Assembly: GCA_041740775.1 (NCBI GenBank)
Contig: JBGSLI010000185.1
Span: 1-42,761, forward strand
DNA from: Alteraurantiacibacter sp.
Lineage (GTDB): Bacteria; Pseudomonadota; Alphaproteobacteria; Sphingomonadales; Sphingomonadaceae
DNA length: 42,761 nucleotides
Direction of reading: 5' to 3'
Of this stretch, positions 1,465 to 26,455 are shown in pieces. Position numbers and translations under genes: made by a program. Every line of letters begins with the position of its first letter. Within the stretch, counting starts at the first letter, position 1. Below the pieces are notes generated by a model that ran no database searches, had not been told where the DNA came from, and was given only the letters and a program-made list of their open reading frames with translations.

Positions 1465-1556
1465 GGAGACGTGGGTGAGTGGCTGAAACCAGTTCCCTGC
1501 TAAGGAACCATACCTCTATCGGGGTATCGAGGGTTCGAATCCCTCCGTCTCCGCCA
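1465..1556 (+). tRNA. tRNA-Ser(GCT)
   Basis: Acceptor stem GGAGACG/CGTCTCC plus GCCA; anticodon stem GTTCC-ctGCTaa-GGAAC; long variable arm; T-loop GGTTCGAATCC. Confidence 0.97.
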
Positions 1557-13696: not shown

Positions 13697-13960
13697 ATGT
13701 CCCCGTCCGACTACACTTTTCCCAACCATTCCATTGCCGAGACTGCGCGCCGCATTTGCGAAACCCGAAGCGGAAAATGGTCGGGCACAAAGGGCATGGC
13801 CCGCTGCCCTGCGCATGATGACCGCACGCCTTCGCTTGGCGTGTCGCTCGGTCGACAGGCTATCCTCTTCCATTGCTTTGCGGGATGCAATCAGCAGAGC
13901 GTGCTGTCGGCATTAGCGCGCGAAGGATTCGAGGCTCCTGCGCTTTTCTCAGGGCCTACA
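13697..13960 (+). pseudogene. N-terminal zinc-finger fragment of an ICE/plasmid primase (toprim-associated)
   Basis: GKWSG..GMARCPAHDDRTPSL..ILFHCFAGC; GAGGAG RBS; homology stops near 13960, where strawberry-notch sequence begins. Confidence 0.75.
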
Positions 13961-14958
13961 TCGGCTGGGCGATCATTCACCGCAATCTTGAGGCGGCGCT
14001 CGAAGCAACGCGGGTGGTCGACGAGGACAGCGGCGATACGCTCAACCGGAATGCCAAAGCGGCAGCGCTCTCGATCTTCGAAGGCACCAAGCAGCGCTTC
14101 TTTGCCCAGCTCCTGCTCTCGATGAAACTGCCGAGCCTGATCCCGGCGATGGAAGAAGCACTTGGCGAAAGCCATTCGGTGGTCGTGCAGCTGGTCTCGA
14201 CCGCCGAAGCCATGCTCGACCGGCGCCTTGCCGACCTCTCCGAAGAAGAACGCGAAACGCTCGATATCGATCTGTCCCCGCGTGAATACGTCATCGACTA
14301 CCTTACCAAGAGCTTCCCTGTGCGCCTGATGCAGGTCTTCGCAGACGAAGACGGCAATCTTCGTTCCGAGGCGATGAGCGACGAGGAGGGTAATCCCGTT
14401 TTCTGTCCCCGCGCCTTGGCCGCGCGCGATGCGCTGATCGAGCAGCTCTGCGCGTTGCCGCCCATCGCAACAGCACTCGATGCGATCATCGAGCATTTCG
14501 GGACCGAGTCAGTGGCGGAGGTTACGGGCCGGACCCGCAGGCTGGTATCGGGCCGCGATGGTCAGCAGCGCCTCGAACGGCGTAGTCCCAGTGCCAATGT
14601 CGCCGAAGCGCAAAGCTTCATGGAAGGGACCAAGCGCATCCTCGTCTTCTCGGATGCGGGCGGCACGGGGCGCTCCTACCATGCCGACCTTGGCTGCCGG
14701 AACCAGCAGCGCCGGATGCATTTCCTGCTCGAGCCGGGCTGGCGCGCTGACAACGCGATCCAGGGACTCGGCCGCACCAACCGCACCAACCAGGCCTCGG
14801 CCCCGTTGTTCCGGCCGGTGACGACCGATGTGAAGGGCGAACGCCGGTTCATCTCGACCATTGCCCGCAGGCTTGATGCCCTCGGCGCGCTGACGCGCGG
14901 TCAGCGCCAGACCGGCGGGCAGAACCTGTTCGACCCGGCTGACAATCTTGAAAGCGAC
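13960..14958 (+). pseudogene. Strawberry-notch family helicase C-terminal fragment (truncated at both ends)
   Basis: FEGTKQRFF..VVQLVSTAEA..VAEVTGR..ILVFSDAGGTGRSYHAD..LLEPGWRADNAIQGLGRTNRTNQ..GERRFISTIARRLDALGALTRGQRQTGGQNLF..DNLES, then an abrupt switch to integrase sequence. Confidence 0.85.
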
Positions 14959-15923
14959 CAGCCACGGCTCGCCGCCTCGCGCGGGCGAAGCTTGCCGAAG
15001 TGGCGCTGGATGGGCTGCCGACGCGAAAGAAGGCCCGCGCTGCGCAGAAGAGCGATGCACCCCTGCTGCGCGACTACGCCGAACGCTTCTGGGCCGACTA
15101 CGCGCGCCACTGGAAACCATCGACCCGCAAACGCAACGAGGCGGTAATCTTCAAGGAAATCCTCGGTGCGTTCGGCGACCGGCGGATCGATGAACTGGCC
15201 AAGGGCGATATCCTGTTCTGGCGCGACAGCTTTGTTGAGCGACCCGGAGTATTCAACCGCACCCTGCCAGTGTTCTCCGTGATGATGGGATATGCGGAGC
15301 GATTTGGCCTGCGCCCGCGCGGCTCTAATCCCTGCAAGGGCACGCCGCGCTACAAGCGCAAACCGATGGAGCGGTTTCTGTCGCCACACGAATATGGGCG
15401 GCTTGCCACAGCATTGCGGGACTATGAAGCGGAGCAGCCGCTCTATGTCGCGGCGATCCGCCTTCTGATCTTCACTGGCGCGCGCTGCGGGGAGATCGAG
15501 CAACTGCGCTGGGAATGGGTGCAAGAGCCGCGCCTAATGTTGCCGGACAGTAAGACCGGCGCGAAGTTCATCTATCTCAACCGACAGGCCATAGATGTGA
15601 TAGCAGCTCTGCCAGACCGGAAGCCGACAGGCCTGCTGTTTCCCTCGTTCCGCAATCCCGACAAGCCGATCACGCTTGGCATTCACTGGTCGAAAATCCG
15701 AAACCACGCGGCGTTACCGGACGTGCGGCTGCACGACCTGCGCCATAGCTTCGCTTCGGTCGCAATCCGCGACAACATCTCGCTGATGGTGATAGGCAAG
15801 CTGCTGGGCCATGCGCTGGCAGAAACGACGATCAGATATGCACACCTGTCCGACGAGATCGTCGCCGATGCGGCGGAACGCGTTTCCGGCTCCATCGCCC
15901 GCCTGATCGGAGTCGGGCAATGA
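14959..15923 (+). CDS. Tyrosine recombinase/integrase, N-terminal arm domain largely lost
   Basis: FTGARCGEI, DSKTG, HDLRHSFAS, LLGH, TIRYAH. The frame extends upstream only to TARRLARAKLAEV at the junction with strawberry-notch. Confidence 0.8.
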
Positions 15924-17161
15924 ACGCGCTGACCCTGCGGGGGATCGTCGCCGAGGAACTCGGCAATCTTCGGCTCCATGTTGTCGGCAACAGCGCTGGC
16001 ATGGGCGAGCTGCGCAAGACGTGCTGGACGCGCGACCTGCCCGGCTTTGGCACCCGGCACTACGCCAGCGGGCGCAAGGTCTACATCGTCCAGGCACGGA
16101 TGGAAGGCCGCACCCGCACGGTGACAATCGGCAACGCCAAGGTGTTGAGCCGTGCGCAGGCGATGGATGTGGCGCGCCGCGTCCTGTTCCGCGCCCAGAC
16201 CGGCGACAACCCGGCGGAGGAGCGCAAGCGGCTGCGCAAGGTTCCGTCCTACCGCGACTTCCTGAAGACCTACTGGGACCGCGTATCGCCCAAGTGGAAG
16301 CCGTCCACGGTATACACCCACCGCTACTACAAGCGGAAATACCTCGACCGCGCATTCGAGGGCCTGTTCCTCGATGAGATCGAGGAACGCCATGTGCAGG
16401 AATGGTTCAACCGGATTACCAACACCGGCGGACCCGGCGCTGCCAACCGTTGCGGTGAAATCCTTCGAGCGATGTTCAACAAGGCCGAGCAATGGGGCGT
16501 GCGGCCCGAAGGATCGAACCCTTGCCTCTAAATCCGCAAGAACAAGGGAAGGAAATGCGAGCGCTTCCTGTCCGATCAGGAGTTCAGGCGGATCGGGGAA
16601 GTGCTCAACCGGCACGGCAAAACCTTTCCGCTGCATTGCGCGGCGATCAGCCTGCTGATCCTGACCGGCTGCCGCAAGTCGGAGATTACATGCCTCAAAT
16701 GGAGCGAAGTGCGAGGGAGGCGTTTGCTGCTGACCGACAGCAAGACCGGCCCGCGCACGGTCTGGCTAGCCGAAGCGGCAGCGACGATCCTGCACGCCCT
16801 GCCGCGCCGGGAGAAGCAGCGGTATGTGTTCTGGAACCCGGCCACCCAGCGCCCGATTACCGATATCGGTAACTTGTGGAGCAGGCTGCGTGACGAGGCG
16901 GGCCTACTCGGCGTCCGCATCCACGATCTGCGGCACAGCTTTGCCAGCCATGCCGCCACCCATTCTGAAACCCTGCCGATGATCGGCAAGCTGCTGGGCC
17001 ATGCCGATGTTCGGACCACGACCCGCTATGCCCATCTTGACGATGGGCATGTCATCGAGGCAGCGCAGCGCATCGGCGACTGGATCGAGCAAAACATGAG
17101 CGGCTCATATTCATTGAGCCGTAACACTAAGTATGATAGTGAACCGTTGCTGCATGACTAA
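15920..17161 (+). pseudogene. Tyrosine integrase with an in-frame nonsense codon (TAA 16529-16531)
   Basis: ORFs 15920..16531 and 16601..17161 are in the same frame and read ..SNPCL*IRKNKGRKCERFLS..; arm domain (LPGFGTR..SGRKVY), TGCRKSEI, DSKTG, HDLRHSFAS, TTRYAH. Confidence 0.9.
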
Positions 17162-17552
17162 GAATCCGCGCATCCGCATCTACGCCAACCGCTGGTTCGC
17201 CAAGTTCGCGGCAAAGGAAAAGATCAGCGATGCCACGCTTGCCGATGCCGTGCATCGGGCCGAATCCGGCCTGATCGATGCCGATCTTGGCAGCGGTCTC
17301 ATCAAGCAGCGCATCGCGCGCCACGGCGGAGGCAAATCGGGCGGTTATCGCTCGATTCTGATCTTCAGCTCAGGCGAGCGGGCCATATTCGTGTTTGCCT
17401 TCGCCAAGAGCGACAAGGCAAACCTGAATGCGGCGGAACTGAAGGTCTATCGCAAGGCCGCCAGCATCATGCTGGAGCTGGGCGATGACCAGATTGAAAC
17501 GGAAGTTGAATCAGGCCGACTGGTCGAGGTGAAAAACGATGAGCAAGGCTAA
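17154..17552 (+). CDS. Type II TA toxin, RelE/ParE-like
   Basis: RWFAKFA..GLIDADLGSGLIKQRIAR.GGGKSGGYRS..FAFAKSDKANL; overlaps a downstream HTH gene. Confidence 0.9.
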   Translation: MTKNPRIRIYANRWFAKFAAKEKISDATLADAVHRAESGLIDADLGSGLIKQRIARHGGGKSGGYRSILIFSSGERAIFVFAFAKSDKANLNAAELKVYRKAASIMLELGDDQIETEVESGRLVEVKNDEQG

Positions 17553-17868
17553 GGCAAAGACCTACAAGAGCGAGGCGATGGCCGCCGTTCACGAGATGAT
17601 GGAAGGCCTCCACGACGCGGGCAGCATCGACAAGCGCACCATGCGCGAGTTCGATGAAGCCTGCCTTGCGCCTGCGCCCGTCCTGTCGCCCGACGAGATC
17701 AAGGCGATCCGAGAGGCAGAGCATGTCTCGCAGCCGGTGTTCGCGCGCTATCTCAACGTATCGAAGAACCTCGTTTCGGACTGGGAACGCGGAGCGAAGA
17801 AGCCGGGAGGCCCCGCGCTGCGGCTCCTTTCGATCATCCAGCGCGGTGGATTGGATGCGGTGGCTTGA
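17539..17868 (+). CDS. XRE-family HTH antitoxin (HigA-like)
   Basis: IDKRTMREFDEAC..LSPDEIKAIRE..VSQPVFARYLNVSKNLVSDWERG.KKPGGPALRLL. Confidence 0.9.
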   Translation: MSKAKAKTYKSEAMAAVHEMMEGLHDAGSIDKRTMREFDEACLAPAPVLSPDEIKAIREAEHVSQPVFARYLNVSKNLVSDWERGAKKPGGPALRLLSIIQRGGLDAVA

Positions 17869-17900
17869 ACTGGGCCAGCAACGCAGGAGCAGCGGAGCGC

Positions 17901-19040
17901 ATGGAAACTCGAAATTGGCCGCCGGCGGGTCATCGTGAGCCGACCATCGTAGTATATGCTGACCTACAATCGCTGGAAGCGTTGACGGGAATCGCCGCGC
18001 GCGGCGGCGATATTCTGGCGGAGCTTTTCGACTATGCCATTCTGGACGGTTCGGATGATACATGGGTGCACGCACTTCCCAACGGTACCAAGCGTGTTTC
18101 CTTGGAAGACCTAGGTCGGACTCTGCCTTCCGATGCCGTGTTCCTAGTGGGCGGTCCGATGGCTTCGAAGCGGATCAATCAGCTGGCGCTGGCGGGCTAT
18201 CCCCACGTCTACAACTTCAACGAAATCGCGCGCGAGATGTCGGCCAAGCTGCGGCTGCTGGTAGCGCTTGCGCCCGGTTTTGCGGGCAGTAGGGTTCCCG
18301 CGATGCTCGACCCGGTCGGCCAGACCGAGCCGCATCATACGCTGATCGAACCGCTCCATCTGCCGCTACCCTCGCGACTGGTCTTTCTGGTCAACAGCCT
18401 GCCCAAATCGGGCTCAGTGTGGCTGTGCGGGATGCTCGAACATGTGCTTGACGTTTCTGGTTCTGACCGGGTTCGTATTTCGCACTGTGCCGATCTCGTC
18501 TTCGACCAGAACCAGCCCAATCTCGGCGGTGCGGTTTCGCTGGTCCGTGATATGCGCGACGTTGTGGTCTCTTGGTTTTACGATGTCGCTAACTCCGATC
18601 TGAGAACCGGCTTCGAACGCGCGCGCTACCCCGATATCGCCAGCTTTTATTTCGAATGCTTTGTCGGGCTGATCGGGAAATCGGATCGTTATTTTGGCGG
18701 GGACCTGGTCGGGTGGATTGATCGCAACTGTGCGAATTACTGTCCGCTGATCAGGTATGAGGACATGGTCGCGGATCCGCAGGGGGCCCTGACCAAGGTC
18801 CTCAATGCCTGGCGGATTCGCGTGCCCGAAGCGCGAGTGGCGGCCGCGGTGCGGGCCTTCGAGCCCTTCAGGCTGCGAAAGGCAGGCGGGCCGCGCGATG
18901 GGTATGTCGGCAAGATGTATCGGCGCGGCCACTTGCGCAATCCAGGATCGGGCAATTGGCAGAATGAACTGCCAGCCGAAGTCTTGAGAGATATCGAGCG
19001 GCGCTTTGCCGACTACCAACAAAGGCTTGGCTACGCCTGA
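17901..19040 (+). CDS. Sulfotransferase-domain protein with an N-terminal extension
   Basis: PAPS-binding motifs NSLPKSGSVWL (5'-PSB) and VRDMRDVVVSWF (3'-PB), plus IRYEDM and R.PGSGNWQNEL. Start taken at ATG 17901; the ORF is open from 17865. Confidence 0.85.
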   Translation: METRNWPPAGHREPTIVVYADLQSLEALTGIAARGGDILAELFDYAILDGSDDTWVHALPNGTKRVSLEDLGRTLPSDAVFLVGGPMASKRINQLALAGYPHVYNFNEIAREMSAKLRLLVALAPGFAGSRVPAMLDPVGQTEPHHTLIEPLHLPLPSRLVFLVNSLPKSGSVWLCGMLEHVLDVSGSDRVRISHCADLVFDQNQPNLGGAVSLVRDMRDVVVSWFYDVANSDLRTGFERARYPDIASFYFECFVGLIGKSDRYFGGDLVGWIDRNCANYCPLIRYEDMVADPQGALTKVLNAWRIRVPEARVAAAVRAFEPFRLRKAGGPRDGYVGKMYRRGHLRNPGSGNWQNELPAEVLRDIERRFADYQQRLGYA

Positions 19041-19043
19041 GGC

Positions 19044-20246
19044 CTAGGCTGGCTGGCGCAACTGATCTGACACGAAAGTGGCTACCGCGTCGGTCAACGT
19101 CTTGACGTGGATTACGCATTCAGTGGTCTCGCCTGATGCGAAGTCACCGTTTTCTACTAGCTGGGTGAGCTCGAATCCGCCAGGGCACATGGCATAATAG
19201 TCGCAGCTCTGTGCACAATGACGATGACTCTTGCCGAAATCGTCCATCATACGCTCAAGTTTGTCTCCGCCGAGCATCTGAGCGAGCGTCTGCTTCTCGA
19301 TATTGCCGAGGCTAAGTCCCTTTCCATCGCCGTAAAGATCGGCCAGAAACTCGGCGTTGAGACCGGCGTAGAAAGTTGTGATCTCGCCACGAGCATCGCA
19401 GTTGAGCTGGCGCAAGGGCGCGGTTCCGAGGCGGACGAAATCGGGCGCATCCGGCCCAGTCGCAGCACGGATCCGCCCCAGCGTCTGCGAGAAATTTCGC
19501 ACCGGCAACTTGCTTCCCTCAGCATTTTGCGCAAGCGACAGCATAGCACGGTAGAATTCGGCATATTTTTGGGTGTCGTCGCGCGAATAGCCAATCTGTG
19601 GCCCTCCATCCGCGTGGTTGGCGAGGATGTTGAAGTGGAAATCGGTGAGGACATCTGCGCGGGCGAGAAAGAAGTCGATGAACTCTTGCGGCTGCGCCAA
19701 TGTCTCTGCTGTCACAACTGCGATCGCGTTGAATGCAATGCCGCGCTCCGCCAGCAGATCCATCCCACGCTCGGTCTGCGCGTGCGAGCCGCGTCCCGAC
19801 CAGTTGACGCGCAGCGGATCGTGCAGTTCGCGCGGGCCGTCGCAGCTGACGCCGAGCCGCAAATGGTCGCGGTGGCGATCGAAGAACGCGCACCAATTCT
19901 CGTCGATGAGCGTCGCGTTTGTCTGAAAATCAAATGTGATGCCGGCGGGCGTTCCGGGACCGTCGAAGTTGAGCGCCAAGATGAGATCAATCGCCTCGTC
20001 ATAATACTCGGGTGGCAGCGAGAGCGGCTCGCCCGAATGCCAAACGATCGAGACTTCGTCAGCAAGCAGTTCCAGTTGCTTGATCTGTGAGAAAAGCTCG
20101 CCGATCATCGGAATCGGCATTCTGTGGGAGAGTTTACGGCTGGCCGGACTCAGATCGCAATAAGTGCAATTGAGATTGCACAGCGGCGTCCCCTGAAGAA
20201 CGATCATCTCGACCGGAAGGAGGTCAACTGGCCTAGAATCTATCAC
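19044..20246 (-). CDS. Radical SAM/SPASM peptide maturase, GrrM/OscB (cyclophane-forming)-like
   Basis: LQGTPLCNLNCTYC (CxxxCxxC), IVWHSGEPL, FQTNATLI, GVSCDGP, C-terminal CAQSCDYYAMCPGG..ETTEC; layout matches GrrM-type enzymes. Confidence 0.85.
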   Translation of the reverse strand: MIDSRPVDLLPVEMIVLQGTPLCNLNCTYCDLSPASRKLSHRMPIPMIGELFSQIKQLELLADEVSIVWHSGEPLSLPPEYYDEAIDLILALNFDGPGTPAGITFDFQTNATLIDENWCAFFDRHRDHLRLGVSCDGPRELHDPLRVNWSGRGSHAQTERGMDLLAERGIAFNAIAVVTAETLAQPQEFIDFFLARADVLTDFHFNILANHADGGPQIGYSRDDTQKYAEFYRAMLSLAQNAEGSKLPVRNFSQTLGRIRAATGPDAPDFVRLGTAPLRQLNCDARGEITTFYAGLNAEFLADLYGDGKGLSLGNIEKQTLAQMLGGDKLERMMDDFGKSHRHCAQSCDYYAMCPGGFELTQLVENGDFASGETTECVIHVKTLTDAVATFVSDQLRQPA

Positions 20247-20289
20247 TTACCAATGCCCCCGCGCCGGATAGAACCGTGCTACTGTTTTG

Positions 20290-20320
20290 CCTCCGCCCGA
20301 ACGCCATCATACGGCGGAGG
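20290..20320 (-). terminator. GC-rich stem-loop between the small peptide gene and the radical SAM gene
   Basis: CCTCCGCC (20290-20297) pairs with GGCGGAGG (20313-20320). No U-tract on the minus strand, so it may be an mRNA-stabilising or attenuating hairpin. Confidence 0.45.
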
Positions 20321-20366
20321 GCGGGATGGTCTGTCGATGCCAAGCGGCAGCCGACAGACCAAAAAA

Positions 20367-20492
20367 TCAGCGGCGCATCGCCGGGCCCCAGCTCTTCTGG
20401 ACAGAAGCGTCAGAAGCCATGACCGCATCCAGACGTCCGGAAGCAGCGGCATTCTTGATTTCGTTAAGGCAGCTCTTGATTGCGTCAGTCAT
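20367..20492 (-). CDS. 41-aa putative RiPP precursor MTDAIKSCLNEIKNAAASGRLDAVMASDASVQKSWGPAMRR
   Basis: Hand translation (below the ORF-track cutoff); AAGAAGGA RBS 6 nt before the ATG; same strand as and directly upstream of the radical SAM gene; single Trp near the C-terminus. Confidence 0.7.
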   Translation of the reverse strand: MTDAIKSCLNEIKNAAASGRLDAVMASDASVQKSWGPAMRR

Positions 20493-20519
20493 GCTTTGTC
20501 CTTCTTACTGATGGTGATC

Positions 20520-20535: not shown

Positions 20536-20732
20536 AGAAAAAACAATATAGCAGGAGGTCTGTGAGTCAAACGTTTGTGTGGTATGCTAAACCTGTTGCT
20601 TTCAACCGCTCTAGGGACATAGGATATCGCAACAGTTCCGGCCAACAAACGCGAAACGGTGGGACTACTCGGCTTAATTTCGGATCAGGCTCGCGGTGGG
20701 AATCAATAGTCTTGGTCAATGGAGGCGCCAAC

Positions 20733-21197
20733 ATGAAAATCTACGTCGTATTCCAAGGGGACCGGCGGCCATTGTGTGCCTTTGTGGACGAAGACCAGGC
20801 TGAGACGTTCAAGTCGATACTCGCGTCAAACCCGGAAATCAGGGATAGAGAACTTCGTGTAGGATCTCTGAACCTGATGAAGCATACTGGCCCAAAATTC
20901 AGTGACATTGTCGAAGACGAGGACAAGGTCGACGAGGGGGGCGAACCAATCTTTTTGAGTTATTCTCCGATGCAATCGTCTCCAATCGGCGTAACACGAA
21001 ATCTGGATGACGCCAGAGGTACGGTGTTCGGGTTCAGTGGCAAGGGCGACGTGCTTGCCATCGACCTGTTTCCTTCGGGCGCCAAGATGCCGGGTGGGAC
21101 AAGATTCGAATACGTCAGCAGTTTTGGCGCTGGCTGGAACTTGTCCATGCATGAAAGATGGCGGCGTCACATGTCATTTTTTGCTTCGAACAAATGA
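20733..21197 (+). CDS. Hypothetical protein (154 aa)
   Basis: GGAGG RBS, ATG 20733, ATGA overlap with the next gene; no family recognised. Confidence 0.7.
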   Translation: MKIYVVFQGDRRPLCAFVDEDQAETFKSILASNPEIRDRELRVGSLNLMKHTGPKFSDIVEDEDKVDEGGEPIFLSYSPMQSSPIGVTRNLDDARGTVFGFSGKGDVLAIDLFPSGAKMPGGTRFEYVSSFGAGWNLSMHERWRRHMSFFASNK

Positions 21198-22267
21198 ATG
21201 CTAATCGCGGAGACGCCATAAAATCTGGGGAATGCTTGACCCGCGCGGATGCGGGTGCCCCGGGTCAGTTGCTGATCGACGCCGCAGTCGCCGAAAACAT
21301 GAGCGATGACGAGATTTGCACTGACTTACTCCCATTAATCCGCAGCAATGTCTATCGCGTCGATCCATGCAGGCGCGCCGTCTCGATCGAAGGGCCGGAT
21401 GTCTCCCATCAGCTAATCGATCCTGACTTGGAGGATGGCCTTCGATGGCTTGGCGTCGGATCGTGCGCACGGTCCCGTTTCGACTTTCGCGAGCAGCGAA
21501 GCCGCCTTTTGCTCGCACTTGAAGATAGCTGGTGCGGGGTATTTCTGGCCAGCCATCTTGCCACGCTGCGATCCGACGAGCCGCTCACGATTATCCATCT
21601 GGACGACCACACCGACATGATGTCGACGCTGCTGGTTGTCGAGCAATGTGCCGACGGCTCGTCAGCGCTTGAGGATCCACTTACCGGGGCGCCGTTCGAT
21701 CCCGCATCCCCCGCTGACTGGCACAGTGCGATCACCAGTGGAGCGATCACGATTGGCTCGTTTCTCACACCATTCTTTGCGCTTGATCGTATCGTAGAAG
21801 TGTTTCACCTCAAGGCCGATCTCGAAAAGGCCGAAACCTTTGCGGTCGCTCCGCAAGCGGTAGACCACGATCTGCTGGCAGGGTATCGGTTCCATGCGAT
21901 TGAGCTGGGCGACAGCGAAGCCGACGCAAACCCGAAGCGCCTCTATCGCCGATCGAATGACGCGCACGAACTACTGGCACCGCTAGCGGAAGATCGCCGG
22001 GCCGCGATCCATATCGACCTCGACTATTTCCTCAACGATTACAACGGAAACGCATGGCAGGTGGGCGAGATCGACATGGTTGCGATGCGGAAGTGTGCGC
22101 TTGAGCGGCTGGACCATTTCTTTTCCGCCCTCGACCGATCTGGCATCTCGATCGCGTGCTGGATGATCGGCGTGTCGCCCGGCTTTTGCAGCGCGCGCCA
22201 CTGGCGGTTCCTCATCGAACAGATCGAACGGCGAATTGCCGATCTCGAAGCCATTCTGGCGAGGTAG
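21194..22267 (+). CDS. UPF0489 / peptide-arginase-like metallohydrolase
   Basis: IIHLDDHTDMM (DxHxD), ITIGSFL, IHIDLDYF (DxD) and SPGF: arginase-fold metal ligands as seen in UPF0489 proteins. Confidence 0.7.
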   Translation: MNANRGDAIKSGECLTRADAGAPGQLLIDAAVAENMSDDEICTDLLPLIRSNVYRVDPCRRAVSIEGPDVSHQLIDPDLEDGLRWLGVGSCARSRFDFREQRSRLLLALEDSWCGVFLASHLATLRSDEPLTIIHLDDHTDMMSTLLVVEQCADGSSALEDPLTGAPFDPASPADWHSAITSGAITIGSFLTPFFALDRIVEVFHLKADLEKAETFAVAPQAVDHDLLAGYRFHAIELGDSEADANPKRLYRRSNDAHELLAPLAEDRRAAIHIDLDYFLNDYNGNAWQVGEIDMVAMRKCALERLDHFFSALDRSGISIACWMIGVSPGFCSARHWRFLIEQIERRIADLEAILAR

Positions 22268-22278
22268 TCTAAGCTTGG

Positions 22279-22914
22279 CTAATCGGGCACGTCCGCCGCA
22301 GTGAAACAGGCCGTCAGCATCCAGATATGCTCCCCCTCCTGCAAGCGATGGCGACGATGCCAGAAGCGGCTGCCATGGCCGAACATGACCGCGCCCTGCG
22401 GCGTGGCAATGGTCTTGAGCAGCGCGCCGGGAGCATCGCCGTCATCAACGTAGACTGAAAGATTCAGGCCCGACACCTGGCTGTCGGGGCGAAGCGGCGA
22501 TGCATTTAGATAAAACAGCAGGGTGACTTCGCAGTTGGAAGCATCGTCGCGGTGGGTTTCGAGGAAATCCCCCACCTCGAAAAAGGTATAGCAGCTGGCG
22601 CCGGGGCAATAGCGAAACGGGCGCCCGAAGACGGGTTCGAGCAGGGCCGCAGAAGCCATGCTGCCGAGCACATGGATTGCTGAGGGGCCAAGCGGGGCTA
22701 CGCGCGAACTGTAAGCCAGATCGGCGCTCTCCGATACTGCGCGCTTCGCCTCGGTACGCTTGAAGCGGGCCTCCCGCGCAAGCTCTTTGAGCATTTCGGA
22801 GGATATGGCATCGGGAAAACAATGAAACCCGAAACATTCGATGGATTGCCGGATGCCGGGCAGTTGCGCGCCGTCAAGCCAGGAAATCGCGGGTACCGTG
22901 GCGGCCTGCGTCAT
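22279..22914 (-). CDS. 2OG-Fe(II) oxygenase family protein
   Basis: YTFFEVGDFLETHRD (HxD)..VTLLFYL..G.VMFGHGSRFWHRR (distal His). Confidence 0.75.
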   Translation of the reverse strand: MTQAATVPAISWLDGAQLPGIRQSIECFGFHCFPDAISSEMLKELAREARFKRTEAKRAVSESADLAYSSRVAPLGPSAIHVLGSMASAALLEPVFGRPFRYCPGASCYTFFEVGDFLETHRDDASNCEVTLLFYLNASPLRPDSQVSGLNLSVYVDDGDAPGALLKTIATPQGAVMFGHGSRFWHRRHRLQEGEHIWMLTACFTAADVPD

Positions 22915-23011: not shown

Positions 23012-24409
23012 ATGACGATTACGGCCATAAATACAGCCCCCGTACACGCAATTGCGGGCGATATTGTTGTCGTCGGCGGCGGAATGGCCGGCCTCACCCT
23101 GGCCCGCAGATTGGCTCCCGGTCGCCGCGTCATTGTGCTTGAGCGGGGCGGTCCGGGGTCGGTGCCGGTTGACCCAGCCTGCGCCAACGGGGAGGTCGTC
23201 GGGCTGCCCTATCCGCTTGGCGAGATCCGCGATTTTCGTCTGGGCGGGTCCAGCTCTGTCTGGGCAGGTTATATCGCGCCACTTGATCGTCGCGACTTCG
23301 CAATCGGCTTTGGAACAGAACTTGGCGGTTGGCCGATCGAATTTGACGAACTGGCTATCTACGCCGATGAAGCCGCGTCATTGCTCAACGTTGCTAGCGC
23401 GGACTTCGCGCCCGACCTGATGGATCTGCCAAAAACGCTGCGCGGGCAACTCTCTCCCCACGGGGTCGACCTGCAGTACTGGCGCTTCAGCAAGCCCATC
23501 GTGCGGATGGCCAACGACTGGTCCCAAGATCTGGCGCAAAGCGCTGAAATCGCCGTCCTGACAGGCGCACGCGCGCTCGAGATCTTACTGACCCACGCGC
23601 AGAATGAGGTCGAGGCGATCACCTGCATGGCTGCGGACGGATCGCGCTTCGAAGTTCGAGGAAGCCTTTATGTGTTGGCATCAGGGGGGCTGGAAACGCC
23701 GCGTCTGATGTTGGCATCGCAAAGCCGGAGCCCTGCTGGCGTCGGCAATTATGAAGGGATGGTCGGTACATGCTTCTGTGAACATCCGCACCTCACGGTT
23801 CCAGGGTTCGAACTGGCGACCGGCAGCCCTTTGAACGCTTACGCGACGACCGGCGCCCTGCGCGATGGCTCGCCTGCAACCGTCAACTTTGCGCTTGATG
23901 CAGGTGCGGCAAACCTCAACGCACGAGCTCACTTTTTCCGCACGCCTGCCATGGCGGAGAACGCCGTTCCAAGACTCGGCATCTTTTGCGAGCAGTCGCC
24001 GATCATCGCGAGCAGGGTTTCTCTCGCGGACGGCTGCGATAGCATCGGGGTGCGCCAGTTGGTGCTGGACTGGCGCATTGCTGAACAGGATATCGAGGAG
24101 TTTGCAGCCATAGCGAACACTCTGTCCGAGGCGTTCGGTCGTGCCGACCATGGACGCTTAGTCCGTGAGCTCCACCCAGGCGACATCGGGCCGGAGCACA
24201 TCCTGCATTCCAATCACCAGCTGGGCACTACACGCATGGCCACCACCGCCCAGCAAGGTGTGGTGGACCGCAATGCCCGTGTATTCGGTGTCGACAATCT
24301 TTTCGTTGCGGGTGGCAGTATCTTTCCTAGGGTAGGCTGGGCCAATCCCACCTTTACGGTCATGCAATGTACGCTGCGCCTTGCCGATCATATTGCGGAG
24401 TTAGTCTAA
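23012..24409 (+). CDS. GMC family FAD-dependent oxidoreductase
   Basis: DIVVVGGGMAG, RLGGSSSVWAG, VLASGGLETPRLML, HQLGTTRM..GVVD..VFGVDNLFVAGGSIFP..ANPTFT. Confidence 0.92.
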   Translation: MTITAINTAPVHAIAGDIVVVGGGMAGLTLARRLAPGRRVIVLERGGPGSVPVDPACANGEVVGLPYPLGEIRDFRLGGSSSVWAGYIAPLDRRDFAIGFGTELGGWPIEFDELAIYADEAASLLNVASADFAPDLMDLPKTLRGQLSPHGVDLQYWRFSKPIVRMANDWSQDLAQSAEIAVLTGARALEILLTHAQNEVEAITCMAADGSRFEVRGSLYVLASGGLETPRLMLASQSRSPAGVGNYEGMVGTCFCEHPHLTVPGFELATGSPLNAYATTGALRDGSPATVNFALDAGAANLNARAHFFRTPAMAENAVPRLGIFCEQSPIIASRVSLADGCDSIGVRQLVLDWRIAEQDIEEFAAIANTLSEAFGRADHGRLVRELHPGDIGPEHILHSNHQLGTTRMATTAQQGVVDRNARVFGVDNLFVAGGSIFPRVGWANPTFTVMQCTLRLADHIAELV

Positions 24410-24411
24410 AA

Positions 24412-24906
24412 ATGAACGCCGCCTCCCTTCAGCATCATGGCTTGTCTCATGTCGGCGTTGCGACCCACGACATGGAAGCGACTATCGCCTTTTATACCGG
24501 GATTCTCGGTTTTCCCGTCGTTGCCGATCACGTTACCGAGATTGGCCAGGGAGGAAGGGTACGTCAGGTCTATTTCGATATCGGTGCGGATACATATTTC
24601 GTGTTCATGGAATCGAAGGGCGTACCCGATATTCCCGAGAATTTTCCGACCGGGATCAACGAAGCTCTGGGCACGCCCGCCGGGATGTTCCACTTTTCTT
24701 TCAACCTTGAAACCCGCGAAGAACTGGTAGCGCGGCAAAATGCGCTCGTTAACCTGGGTATAGGGGTTTCGGACATCATCGACCTCGGCCATGCCGATTC
24801 TATCTTCTTCTTCGACCCCAATAATCTGCAGCTTGAATTCTGCTGGCATTCAAGGCGCTTCGACGCTTCGGACATGGGCAAACGCTCCACCGCGGATCTG
24901 GCCTAG
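24412..24906 (+). CDS. VOC/glyoxalase family protein
   Basis: GLSHVGVATHDMEATIAFYTGILGF..FHFSF..SIFFFDPNNLQLEF; starts 2 nt after the GMC stop codon. Confidence 0.9.
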   Translation: MNAASLQHHGLSHVGVATHDMEATIAFYTGILGFPVVADHVTEIGQGGRVRQVYFDIGADTYFVFMESKGVPDIPENFPTGINEALGTPAGMFHFSFNLETREELVARQNALVNLGIGVSDIIDLGHADSIFFFDPNNLQLEFCWHSRRFDASDMGKRSTADLA

Positions 24907-25499
24907 ACCTGTGGATTTTGTCAGAACATCACCACGTTTGCTGATGCCCATGCAATTCCCACAGATTGCCTTAACACGATGGCTATCTGTTACCAACTTG
25001 GTCCCGGGGGAGATCAAACAGCTATTCTCGACTCTTCTCCTCAAGCCCGGTTTGGGCTAGAAAATCCGCGTGAAACCAAGGCCTTTGCCATCGGAAATCA
25101 GGCGGGGAAGTGGTCGATCACATCGGTCCAAATAGGGAACAACTTCGCGCACACCGAACGCAGCGGCAGCTGCAAAAAAATGACCGAAAAGCGTGAAGAA
25201 ACAGACGCGTTGCCCAAGCGCGAGACGGGACAAGCGAGTTGTTGCGGATCAAGGCCTGCCGATCTTTCGACCTCTCCAAAGGAAACGACAGATCCGATGC
25301 TTGCTGATCAAGGCGAGGAGTTCCGGCTCGAGCGTGGCTTCGCGCGCCGATGCTGTCCAATTGTCATAAGGAGCGCCCAGGATTCGCGCCGAACCGGGTG
25401 ATGAACCGGGGCGACAGGAAGACACAGGCAATTTTGTCACTCCTGCGTCGGGGCGCGCGTGCGCCATTAACTGCCCAGCTTCATCAAGGGAGCTGAAAA

Positions 25500-25960
25500 G
25501 TGAAATTGTTAGAGAGCAAAGTAGCCATCATCACAGGCGCTAGTTCAGGCATCGGGAGGGCGGCCGCAACATTGTTCGCCGCGCACGGAGCGTCGGTGGT
25601 GCTCGTCGCACGACGAAAGGGTCCGCTGGACTTGGCGGTCGAGGAAATCGAAAATCTTGGAGGCCGTGCGCTCGCCATCGTGGGAGACGTAACGGAAGAG
25701 CGCACGCACAAGGAGGCCGTTGCTGCCGCACGGGCACAGTTTGGCGGCTTGCACATTGCCTTCAACAATGCCGGTCTGGTCGGAGCTATGAAGCCGCTGG
25801 TGGAGATCGAGCCTCGGGAATGGTCGGAAGTGCTGGCGGTGAACCTCACGGCCGCGTTTCTCGGCGCTCGAGAACAGATCTCCGCCATGCTGGAGCAGGG
25901 AGCGGGCGCACTTGTATTCACCGGGAGCTTTGTCGGCAACAGCGTGGGGTTGCCGGGTAT
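25500..25960 (+). pseudogene. Short-chain dehydrogenase (SDR), 3'-truncated before the catalytic YxxxK
   Basis: KVAIITGASSGIG, AFNNAG, VNLTAAF, SFVGNSVGLPG, then a switch to antisense GGDEF-gene sequence. Confidence 0.85.
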
Positions 25961-26455
25961 CCGCGCAATGGTGTCTGTGTCCCTGAGGAGCTTGCGAAGC
26001 CGATCCCCAACATACTGAACCAAGAGGTCTCCAGCGGCATGGCCGAGCGTATCATTGACAATCTTGAACCTGTCGAGGTCGAGAATCAGGAGAGCAAACC
26101 TTTCCTTGTTTCGCCGCATTCTGCCAATCGCTTGGCCCAGGCTGTCCTCAAGAAGTGCCCTGTTGGCCAGGCCTGTAAGTGCGTCATGGGCTGCCTGATG
26201 TCTGGCTTTCGCCTCCCGTTTTTCCAACTCGAGGACTACTTCTACAAGAGCCCGGTGAAGCAGAGACATCACCAGAACCGTTACGATTGTCGAAGCCACT
26301 AGAGTGGGCCAAATCAGTTCGAACAGTTGTGGGCCGGACGCAGCGTCTCGCTGCACCACCATCACTGTGGCGAAGTTTGTGAACACGATTGTTGCAATCG
26401 CGGCCGCGACGATTGGTGGCGTCAGTTTACGCGAATACCCCAAATCGACCTCCAT
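25959..26455 (-). pseudogene. Membrane diguanylate cyclase, truncated just before the GGDEF motif
   Basis: Two TM segments, HDALTGLANR, LDLDRFKIVNDTLGHAAGD, DTIARI, then antisense SDR sequence. Confidence 0.85.

What the first reader, a model, noticed from the sequence alone, without database searches (positions are those of the whole stretch)
20367..20492. 41-aa precursor peptide missing from the ORF track, ending in KSWGPAMRR
Seen: MTDAIKSCLNEIKNAAASGRLDAVMASDASVQKSWGPAMRR, with an AAGAAGGA RBS and a GC hairpin (20290-20320) separating it from the rSAM gene. Its only aromatic residue is one Trp. Known: triceptide crosslinks usually follow an aromatic-X-X pattern, and GrrA-type precursors are longer with Gly-rich repeated cores. 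Inference: the N-terminus is a helical leader, and the core offers W-G-P (Trp-to-Pro, unusual) or K-S-W as the ring, so the chemistry may be new.
Basis: partly seen in the sequence, partly recalled or inferred. Interest (0 to 1): 0.85.

Follow-up and report, generated by a model that had tools for sequence, protein, structure and literature searches.

The report
Trp-Gly-Pro/Ser cyclophane peptide precursor family
This tiny gene is the conserved precursor of a bacterial peptide cluster that I did not find described, in which a radical-SAM enzyme likely staples the tryptophan of a seven-residue tail, and a neighbouring oxygenase, present when residue 3 is proline and lost or broken when it is serine, likely adds the hydroxyl that proline lacks.

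Summary
The 41-aa ORF (20367-20492, minus strand) is a real precursor gene. 45 of 46 loci of its radical-SAM (rSAM) clade carry a peptide ending W-G-[P/S/T]-x-M-R-x-stop; the 46th is cut by its contig. In 139 of 143 profile hits Trp is 7th from the end; the Lys of K-S-W is in only 13 of 142, so that ring is out. The rSAM is a separate clade inside the GrrM/OscB radiation, below the TIGR04261 cut-off, with a remodelled pocket. A model supports binding (0.87, best control 0.23). The cluster adds a 2OG-Fe(II) oxygenase, OspR-like arginase, GMC oxidoreductase, sulfotransferase and VOC protein. The oxygenase occurs at 18 of 21 Pro loci and intact at 0 of 8 Ser loci, frameshifted in one. There are only four switches, so this is not significant by independent pairs. 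Best reading: a Trp1-residue-3 ring plus Pro hydroxylation; chemistry untested. The scan noted this rSAM/WGP pairing before in another genome (e1-5256593).

The parts
20367..20492 (-). Precursor gene, 41 aa: leader residues 1-34, predicted heptapeptide core W35-G-P-A-M-R-R41 (core codons 20390-20370, stop 20369-20367)
   Evidence: ORF; orthologues at 45 of 46 clade loci; profile search; complex model. The leader/core boundary is inferred from conservation.
20499..20506 (-). Shine-Dalgarno-like AAGAAGGA, 6 nt before the ATG
   Evidence: Sequence; purine-rich sites before the orthologous starts
20543..20570 (-). Weak sigma-70-like promoter candidate (TTGACT-16-TATTGT)
   Evidence: 1 found against 0.7 expected by chance; TTTGACTC also lies upstream in L001-L003. 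Weak.
20328..20360 (-). Conserved stem-loop directly after the precursor stop; likely an mRNA-stabilising 3' hairpin, not a canonical terminator (inferred)
   Evidence: Fold; consensus fold of 6 loci
20290..20325 (-).
19044..20246 (-). Radical SAM/SPASM maturase, 400 aa, GrrM/OscB-related clade; CxxxCxxC at 23-30, C-terminal Cys 344/348/354/377; clade-specific pocket residues H204, N251, FYAG 292-295, E376
   Evidence: TIGR04261 242 bits against a cut-off of 310; invariant columns; tree; pocket comparison
22279..22914 (-). 2OG-Fe(II) oxygenase, 211 aa, H121-x-D123...H186 triad invariant; predicted hydroxylase of Pro3
   Evidence: Alignment; fold; co-occurrence with Pro3; distances track the rSAM's, Mantel rho 0.72 on 13 loci
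21158..22267 (+). Ureohydrolase of the peptide-arginase (OspR) fold; true start probably near 21237; predicted Arg-to-ornithine enzyme
   Evidence: OspR 8BRP is the best match, Foldseek E 2.9e-6 and Z 15.1, rmsd 3.7, 216 aligned; DxHxD and DLDYF invariant; homology with relatives starts at 21237
23012..24409 (+). GMC-family FAD oxidoreductase
   Evidence: Pfam GMC_oxred_C and GMC_oxred_N; found at 17 loci
24367..24906 (+). VOC/glyoxalase-family protein
   Evidence: Pfam PF00903; found at 9 loci
17865..19040 (+). Sulfotransferase-domain protein, convergent with the rSAM
   Evidence: Pfam PF00685; at 10 of 21 Pro loci and 0 of 8 Ser loci
20733..21197 (+). 154-aa ORF of no known family, in a stretch unique to the window where close relatives have an 800-aa gene; not part of the conserved cluster
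   Evidence: No Pfam or NCBIfam hit; gap in DNA homology 20505/20664-21236/21337
15000..17868 (+). Tyrosine-integrase genes and a RelE/HTH toxin-antitoxin pair inside the same homology block; likely the mobile element carrying the cluster
   Evidence: Pfam; 87-91% DNA blocks with relatives in other genera

Best explanation
The ORF is the precursor peptide of a conserved radical-SAM peptide cluster, and its C-terminal W-G-P-A-M-R-R is likely stapled by the adjacent enzyme into a three-residue Trp1-to-residue-3 ring, with the cluster's 2OG-Fe(II) oxygenase likely hydroxylating Pro3 so that it carries a hydroxyl like the Ser or Thr found there in relatives. Shown: the gene, its conservation, the fixed seven-residue register, the gene neighbourhood and the Pro/oxygenase co-occurrence. 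Predicted: the helical leader docks on the rSAM's C-terminal helix and residues 31-38 contact the enzyme. Inferred steps: (1) the 5'-deoxyadenosyl radical removes a C-beta hydrogen of residue 3 and the radical adds to the Trp indole, -2 Da, as OscB does for Trp/Asn and MscB for Phe/Ser; (2) the oxygenase adds +16 Da on Pro3; (3) the OspR-like enzyme converts Arg6 and/or Arg7 to ornithine; (4) the sulfotransferase, GMC oxidase and VOC protein tailor further, the hydroxyl being the likeliest handle; (5) the leader is cut at Ser/Trp by an unidentified protease and the small macrocycle is exported, likely as a competition or signal molecule. My odds: precursor of this rSAM 0.97; Trp in the ring 0.9; ring closes on residue 3 0.6; oxygenase acts on Pro3 0.7.
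For: Peptide at 45 of 46 clade loci, and absent under the strict motif from 43 control loci. In 143 profile hits, W-G is in 142, Trp is 7th from the end in 139, and residue 3 is Pro 114, Ser 26, Thr 1; four precursors repeat the core in tandem (L021, P0124, P0125, P0152). Ala and Leu, each one base from Pro, are never seen at position 3, which points to selection for Pro or a hydroxyl residue (inference). The clade (SH-aLRT 100) nests among GrrM-like enzymes whose precursors carry W-x-N motifs; OscB links Trp C7 to Asn/Asp C-beta and MscB links Phe to Ser C-beta (PMC11002830, passages). Complex score 0.87 against a best control of 0.23; the mark was reached by 116 of 157 solved and 2 of 215 mismatched pairs; runs share at least 72% of contacts, partner pLDDT at least 75. 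Oxygenase at 18 of 21 Pro loci, intact at 0 of 8 Ser loci, while arginase, GMC, VOC and ABC genes show no such split. L016 (Ser) has the oxygenase in its usual place, frameshifted. L018, L020 and L030 (Ser) run rSAM-arginase where their Pro sister L019 runs rSAM-oxygenase-arginase. The oxygenase also occurs at L035, whose core has no Arg.
Against: No chemistry was tested. The Pro/oxygenase link rests on 4 switches on the tree; only 2 independent pairs lie on starred branches, sign test p 0.5, so the Fisher p of 4e-5 overstates it. Three Pro loci show no oxygenase (L008, L040, L042; contigs end within or near the cluster), and L013's copy, counted as present, is 3'-truncated. Short contigs also limit the Ser loci (L010, L033, L039). 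L016's frameshifts could be general decay or assembly error; that contig shows no other tailoring gene. The oxygenase's closest folds are BesD/HalB/HalD Lys/Orn enzymes (Z 21.4, rmsd 2.5, 200 aligned), ahead of prolyl hydroxylases (Z 18.6-17.8). Met5 is 133 of 142 conserved and unexplained. The rSAM pocket differs from the W-x-N enzymes at several otherwise invariant positions, so triceptide chemistry cannot be assumed. The complex may pass by likeness to solved rSAM-peptide structures and gives no distance to SAM. The arginase seems to have Ser for one of six metal ligands.
Confidence: 0.5

Rival explanations
1. The rSAM links Trp1 to residue 5 (Met, sometimes Asn or Leu) to make a five-residue ring; Gly-Pro/Ser forms the turn and residue 3 is only a hydroxylation site.
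For: Position 5 is Met 133, Asn 6, Leu 2 of 142, more uniform than position 3; each offers an activated C-H (inference). The pocket is remodelled relative to W-x-N enzymes. rSAM cyclophanes span three- to five-residue motifs (PMC11499958). It frees the residue-3 hydroxyl for the sulfotransferase or GMC enzyme.
Against: The characterised member of the parent family, OscB, makes i/i+2 rings. Met conservation could reflect recognition by a tailoring enzyme or the target.
Confidence: 0.2
2. The oxygenase acts first and the rSAM then uses the residue-3 hydroxyl (Ser, Thr or hydroxyproline) to form an ether link, to Trp or to a neighbouring carbon.
For: It explains why a hydroxyl at position 3 seems required in every lineage. 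rSAM C-O links exist (DarE; TqqB recalled from memory).
Against: Characterised triceptide synthases link Ser through carbon and leave its OH (MscB; His-Ser link in minviopeptin, PMC12912966). Ser and hydroxyproline place their oxygens differently.
Confidence: 0.12
3. The ring is Trp1-residue 3, but the oxygenase hydroxylates Arg6 or ornithine, as BesD-family enzymes act on Lys/Orn, and its association with Pro is a lineage coincidence.
For: Best structural matches are HalB, HalD, BesD and their hydroxylase homologue (Z 20.7-21.4). Independent pairs are too few for significance.
Against: Ser loci keep Arg6, 6 of 8 keep the arginase, yet none has an intact oxygenase. The oxygenase is present at L035 (core WGPLMQT, no Arg) and at loci with no arginase in view.
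Confidence: 0.13
4. One reading: a Lys-Ser-Trp ring.
For: Ser precedes Trp in 115 of 142 hits. Lys-Trp links are known in streptide (recalled from memory).
Against: Lys at -2 is in only 13 of 142; Thr, Ala, Ser, Met, Leu and Arg are common there.
Confidence: 0.02
5. The ORF is not a functional gene, or is not the substrate of this rSAM.
Against: Conserved at the protein level beside rSAMs from 38% to 94% identity, with synonymous codon variation; it stays with the rSAM even when moved downstream to the other strand (L043, L045).
Confidence: 0.02

Closest known systems
Triceptides made by GrrM/OscB (TIGR04261) on GrrA/OscA-type precursors
   Same: Best NCBIfam match; the clade nests among these enzymes; same C-terminal cysteine pattern; precursor upstream of the rSAM; aromatic-X-X motif at the C-terminus.
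   Different: Score 242 is below the cut-off of 310. Usually one core in a fixed 7-residue register instead of repeated W-x-N cores. Residue 3 is Pro/Ser/Thr. Pocket residues F[SC]PE, E251 and N-[VIF]-[ED]-E become FYAG, N251 and N-I-L-A. Up to six tailoring genes.
MscB, MicB and other triceptide synthases that link to Ser C-beta; minviopeptin as a tailored triceptide
   Same: Precedent for aromatic-to-Ser C-beta links and for a 2OG-Fe(II) tailoring enzyme in a triceptide cluster (PMC11002830 passages; PMC12912966 part 1 and passages).
   Different: Phe or His rather than Trp; no Pro at X3; MicC cleaves the backbone; other rSAM families (FxsB scores 62 bits here).
Peptide arginase OspR (PF12640/UPF0489; PDB 8BRP)
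   Same: Best structural match of the 21158-22267 product; DxHxD and DLDYF motifs invariant. All 19 informative rows with this gene have Arg6; the 2 rows without Arg6 show none.
   Different: No Pfam hit and no PDB sequence hit. The EEH motif appears as invariant EDS (aligned by spacing, inferred), so one Mn ligand seems lost. This precursor type is not among those listed in PMC12703449 (parts 1-2 of 5).
Darobactin (DarE) and dynobactin (DynA) rSAM peptides
   Same: Short C-terminal core beginning with Trp (core sequences recalled from memory); related SPASM rSAMs.
   Different: DarE 80 and DynA 108 bits, far below the cut-offs of 650 and 450; only one aromatic residue, so no bicyclic aromatic scaffold.
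2OG-Fe(II) oxygenases: BesD/HalB/HalD family and PHD/OGFOD1/P4H prolyl hydroxylases
   Same: Same fold and an intact H-x-D...H triad.
   Different: 12-20% identity to all of them; the fold does not decide the substrate. The Asp of HxD argues for hydroxylase over halogenase (HxG/A in halogenases, recalled from memory).

Membership tests
GrrM/OscB maturase family (TIGR04261) | HMM score at or above the curated cut-off of 310 bits | tested here: not met
   242.1 bits for the window's enzyme, 297.9 for L004
GrrM/OscB maturase family (TIGR04261) | Descent from within the GrrM-like radiation | tested here: met
   Clade of 15 rows (100*) nested among GrrM-like rows, sister branches at 93 and 87, including an annotated GrrM (L088); quick tree, not starred at that depth
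GrrM/OscB maturase family (TIGR04261) | GrrA/OscA-type precursor with repeated aromatic-X-Asn/Asp cores | tested here: not met
   Single W-G-[P/S/T] core; no Asn or Asp at position 3 in 141 precursor hits; no family hit for the peptide
Triceptides (class) | SPASM-type radical SAM enzyme encoded with the precursor | tested here: met
Triceptides (class) | Conserved aromatic-X2-X3 motif in the core | tested here: met
   W-G-[P/S/T] in 141 of 143 hits
Triceptides (class) | Aromatic-to-C-beta C-C crosslink between residues 1 and 3 (definition in PMC11499958) | not testable with these tools
   Needs co-expression, MS/MS and NMR; the complex job gives no geometry to SAM
Peptide arginases (OspR/PF12640) | Ureohydrolase fold closest to OspR | tested here: met
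   Z 15.1, rmsd 3.7, 216 aligned; next match Z 10.3
Peptide arginases (OspR/PF12640) | Three motifs giving six Mn ligands: EEH(N/H)EAF, DXHXD, LDIDLDYFSC (PMC10028609) | tested here: inconclusive
   DDHxD and HIDLDYF invariant (five ligands); the first motif reads EDSW, matched by spacing only, so the His ligand appears absent
Peptide arginases (OspR/PF12640) | Arg-to-ornithine conversion on the precursor | not testable with these tools
   Only co-occurrence with Arg6
Prolyl hydroxylases (PHD/P4H/OGFOD1 type) | DSBH fold with H-x-D...H triad | tested here: met
Prolyl hydroxylases (PHD/P4H/OGFOD1 type) | Closest structural relative is a prolyl hydroxylase | tested here: inconclusive
   Foldseek ranks P. 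putida P4H first by E-value; VIA-align ranks HalB/HalD/BesD higher, Z 21.4 against 18.6
Prolyl hydroxylases (PHD/P4H/OGFOD1 type) | Hydroxylates a peptidyl proline | not testable with these tools
   Inferred from co-occurrence with Pro3
Daropeptides / dynobactins | DarE/DarW/DynA HMM cut-off and a second aromatic residue in the core | tested here: not met
   80, 100 and 108 bits against 650, 650 and 450; one aromatic residue

The most novel reading that the evidence does not exclude
A new, widespread cyclophane-peptide family in which a remodelled GrrM-type radical-SAM enzyme forms a Trp-to-Pro carbon-carbon link (a fused pyrrolidine cyclophane). A dedicated oxygenase then makes that proline a hydroxy-amino acid, a step evolution has repeatedly bypassed by mutating Pro to Ser and discarding the enzyme. 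Ornithine formation, oxidation and O-sulfation follow on a seven-residue scaffold.
Probability: 0.4. Interest if true: 0.85.

Novelty: new variant of a known kind. Interest (0 to 1): 0.7.

Why it matters
The characterised triceptide links listed in the review passages I read end on Asn, Asp, Arg, Ser or Ala, and HtkB adds Lys; none ends on Pro. A Trp-Pro link, or either rival ring, would be new radical-SAM chemistry. The cluster packs an oxygenase, arginase-like hydrolase, FAD oxidase, sulfotransferase and VOC protein around seven residues, which is unusually dense tailoring for a ribosomal peptide. The natural Pro/Ser switch with loss of the oxygenase gives a sharp prediction that a three-gene co-expression can test. 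Named strains carry close copies (Sphingobium sp. Ant17, Novosphingobium sp. PC22D, Altericroceibacterium spongiae HN-Y73), so the natural product may be isolable.

Tried and rejected
K-S-W ring: rejected. The 357-aa antisense ORF as a gene over the precursor: only its 3' part lies outside the cluster, in DNA unique to the window. Expression: contigs of relatives in two marine metatranscriptome runs of one study cover 19990-20506 and 20231-20506 with 20 and 11 differences, but contigs also cover the toxin-antitoxin region and other genes and DNA carry-over cannot be excluded, so transcription is not shown. More loci: 0 of 400 other genomes of the phylum and 2 of 400 of the family matched, so it is patchy in those searched; viral contigs gave 2 distant 30% matches; plasmids gave 2 GrrM at 28-32%; whole records behind five metagenome loci were not held. 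A search for rSAM columns tracking Pro versus Ser found none clean. PDB sequence search: no hit for the arginase-like alignment, one weak hit (9BLQ, E 0.001) for the oxygenase. A single-peptide search found only 2 close hits. The complex model names peptide residues 31-38 and not 39-41 as contacts; an unnamed residue is uncertain, so I did not use this to choose the ring. Literature: eight full-text searches listed no paper on this motif or cluster; for I saw 25 of 48, 30 of 96 and 30 of 45 listings. Supplement searches of PMC10288494 and PMC9062424 gave 0 hits, but so did my positive controls, so they are uninformative; PMC11499958's supplement gave 0 hits with no control. The Atlas look-up for the 154-aa ORF was unavailable.

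Full report
Observation. The ORF is as described: 20367-20492 on the minus strand, 41 aa, ending KSWGPAMRR, with AAGAAGGA 6 nt before the ATG. It lies 120 nt upstream of a 400-aa radical SAM gene on the same strand (19044-20246). The spacer folds better than shuffles (z -3.0) into two hairpins.

It is a gene. A genome scan with the rSAM gave 6 loci and a metagenome scan with a 75-row alignment kept the best 80 of 130. 46 of these 86 loci belong to one rSAM clade (L001-L004, L007-L047, L070). 45 of the 46 carry a short ORF ending W-G-x-x-[M/L]-[R/K/Q]-x-stop; L010 is cut by its contig and still shows GSAMRR-stop. Seven are near-duplicates (L024, L025, L029, L038, L041, L045, L070). The loose pattern also gave two stray hits (L005, L045). 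The strict motif has 0 matches in 268,511 bases of 43 control loci. All four Gly codons and all three stop codons are used. A profile of 35 precursors against 1.84 billion representatives returned 143 hits, 2 of them long unrelated proteins; some hits are my own query sequences. Among the 142 with a W-G, Trp is 7th from the C-terminus in 139. Position -2 is Lys in only 13; -1 is Ser in 115; 3 is Pro 114, Ser 26, Thr 1; 4 is Ala 89, Met 27, Gln 14, Leu 8; 5 is Met 133, Asn 6, Leu 2; 6 is Arg 115, Lys 21, Gln 5; 7 varies. The core is therefore a heptapeptide W-G-[P/S/T]-x-M-R-x, and the K-S-W ring is excluded.

The enzyme. Its best family is GrrM/OscB (TIGR04261), 242 bits against a cut-off of 310. 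330 proteins match at E 1e-30 or better, the best 120 at 46-100% identity. On a quick tree with 35 more distant rSAMs the clade is monophyletic (100*, long stem) and nested among GrrM-like enzymes, most of which have multi-core W-x-N peptides upstream (those peptides were picked automatically and some picks are wrong). Positions invariant in 10 GrrM-like neighbours are replaced across the clade: E251 by Asn, and F[SC]PE by FYAG at 292-295; H204 and E376 are clade-specific. Several lie in the predicted peptide interface. The complex job scored 0.87 against a best control of 0.23; the mark was reached by 116 of 157 solved complexes and 2 of 215 mismatches, counts that hold only roughly here; runs agree in at least 72% of contacts and partner pLDDT is at least 75. 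Leader residues 5, 8, 9, 12, 15 and 16 pack against residues 385-397 and 253-260. The pass may come from likeness to solved rSAM-peptide complexes, and it does not show which residue faces SAM.

The cluster. All-against-all comparison of ORFs found recurrent neighbours: an arginase-like protein (21 loci), a 2OG-Fe(II) oxygenase (20), a GMC oxidoreductase (17), an ABC transporter of the ABC_membrane_2/SbmA type (12), a sulfotransferase (10) and a VOC protein (9), plus an alpha/beta hydrolase and an FkbM methyltransferase in 3 each. The window has all but the last three. Gene order and strand vary between lineages, so the grouping is not just shared synteny. The arginase-like model matches OspR best (Foldseek E 2.9e-6; Z 15.1, rmsd 3.7, 216 aligned). 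It keeps DxHxD and DLDYF, but the EEH motif appears as EDS, so its reaction is not certain. All 19 informative rows with this gene have Arg6, 8 with Arg6 show none, and the 2 without Arg6 show none. In the window the cluster sits with integrase and toxin-antitoxin genes in blocks 82-91% identical to those of other sphingomonad loci, and only 2 of 400 other genomes of the family matched, which fits a mobile element. No protease or exporter is evident in the window's cluster.

The Pro/oxygenase switch. On a tree of 40 rSAMs (39 loci and the window; the seven near-duplicates left out) residue 3 changes between Pro and Ser/Thr four times. I kept the 29 rows with at least 700 bases downstream and dropped 11. 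The oxygenase is present at 18 of 21 Pro rows and intact at 0 of 8 Ser rows; arginase (13/21, 6/8), GMC (9/21, 5/8), VOC (6/21, 2/8) and ABC (8/21, 3/8) show no such split; the sulfotransferase does (10/21, 0/8). In L016 (Ser) the gene is in its usual place after the rSAM but split over two frames with several small indels. L018, L020 and L030 (Ser) go from rSAM straight to arginase where their Pro sister L019 has the oxygenase between. Oxygenase and rSAM distances correlate over 13 loci (rho 0.72). Against this: only 2 independent pairs lie on starred branches (4 on all branches) and the sign test gives p 0.5. L008, L040 and L042 are Pro loci without the gene in view, L013's copy is 3'-truncated, and several contigs are short. 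The fold is closer to the BesD/HalB/HalD Lys/Orn enzymes (Z 21.4) than to prolyl hydroxylases (Z up to 18.6), although Foldseek ranked a bacterial prolyl-4-hydroxylase first by E-value. I therefore give Pro hydroxylation 0.7.

Mechanism. Most likely the leader helix docks on the rSAM, the enzyme links the Trp indole to C-beta of residue 3, the oxygenase hydroxylates Pro3, Arg becomes ornithine, other enzymes tailor the hydroxyl, and a protease outside the cluster releases the macrocycle. Triceptides are defined by this aromatic-to-C-beta link (PMC11499958). OscB links Trp C7 to Asn/Asp and MscB links Phe to Ser (PMC11002830), so the Ser variants have precedent and the Pro variants do not in what I read. 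The main rivals are a Trp1-Met5 ring (0.2), an oxygenase acting on Arg/ornithine (0.13) and an ether through the residue-3 hydroxyl (0.12). The conserved Met5 and the Pro-only sulfotransferase remain unexplained.

Novelty. It works like a triceptide cluster but fails the TIGR04261 cut-off and the GrrA precursor pattern, so I file it as a new variant of a known kind. Eight searches of the open library listed nothing on this motif or gene set. The library lacks most subscription papers, including the primary triceptide surveys, whose supplements may list this precursor as a prediction. What I saw of each paper: PMC11499958 parts 1-2 of 3 and a supplement search; PMC12703449 parts 1-2 of 5; PMC12912966 part 1 of 7 and passages; PMC11002830 and PMC10028609 passages; PMC10288494 and PMC9062424 supplement searches only, whose positive controls also failed. 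Remarks on streptide, TqqB, darobactin and dynobactin cores, halogenase HxG and McbG/AlbG are recalled.

Verdict. Observation confirmed; interpretation partly supported. Interest 0.7.

Noticed in passing
window 20664-21236 (ORF 20733-21197 +): DNA unique to the window, with a 154-aa ORF of no known family, stands where L001-L003, L007 and L093 have an 800-aa gene with a weak pentapeptide-repeat hit. It looks like a replacement inside the cluster.
   Followed up: partly
L029:2172-4589, L009:785-2638, L022:9796-10917, L042:5849-6757, L010:5645-6277: Two different families of pentapeptide-repeat proteins recur next to the cluster in separate lineages. Such proteins give self-resistance to gyrase poisons in other clusters (McbG, AlbG; recalled), a weak hint at the product's target.
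   Followed up: no
L016:2202-2583: Frameshifted remnant of the oxygenase gene in a Ser-core locus.
   Followed up: yes
L021:475-696; proteins P0124, P0125, P0152: Precursors with two tandem cores; the inner copy is six residues (WGP[A/M]MR) followed by a spacer.
   Followed up: no
L043:5224-5409, L045:1676-1861: The precursor gene lies downstream of the rSAM on the opposite strand.
   Followed up: no
window 17865-19040 and homologues: The sulfotransferase was seen only at Pro loci (10 of 21, against 0 of 8 Ser loci), including the three Pro loci without a visible oxygenase.
   Followed up: partly
L048-L086, e.g. L054, L069, L073, L081: Several unannotated GrrM-like clades with distinct multi-core precursors upstream (WNNWPKWSKWSNW; DWPNWTNWG; WDNFDRYFKF; FPNFPNFSNWRNR types).
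   Followed up: no
L010:2365-4248, L022:7256-9629, L018:5262-6992, L020:8151-8930, L039: Ser-type clusters often carry other genes: a dual-specificity phosphatase-like protein, an FkbM methyltransferase and an unannotated 410-aa protein.
   Followed up: no
window 13697-17868: Mobile-element remnants: a DnaG-type zinc finger, a strawberry-notch helicase fragment, tyrosine-integrase genes (one apparently split over 15920-16531 and 16601-17161) and a RelE/HTH pair.
   Followed up: no
window 25484-26455 (-) and 25500-26018 (+): A GGDEF gene whose domain match stops at profile position 82 of 161, overlapping a short-chain-dehydrogenase-like ORF on the other strand; it looks like a rearrangement junction.
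   Followed up: no
window 1465-1556: tRNA-Ser(GCT), the only tRNA in the window.
   Followed up: no
L034:3628-4628; L013:2249-2845: The arginase-like gene of L034 is split over two frames, and the oxygenase of L013 breaks off after about residue 133.
   Followed up: partly
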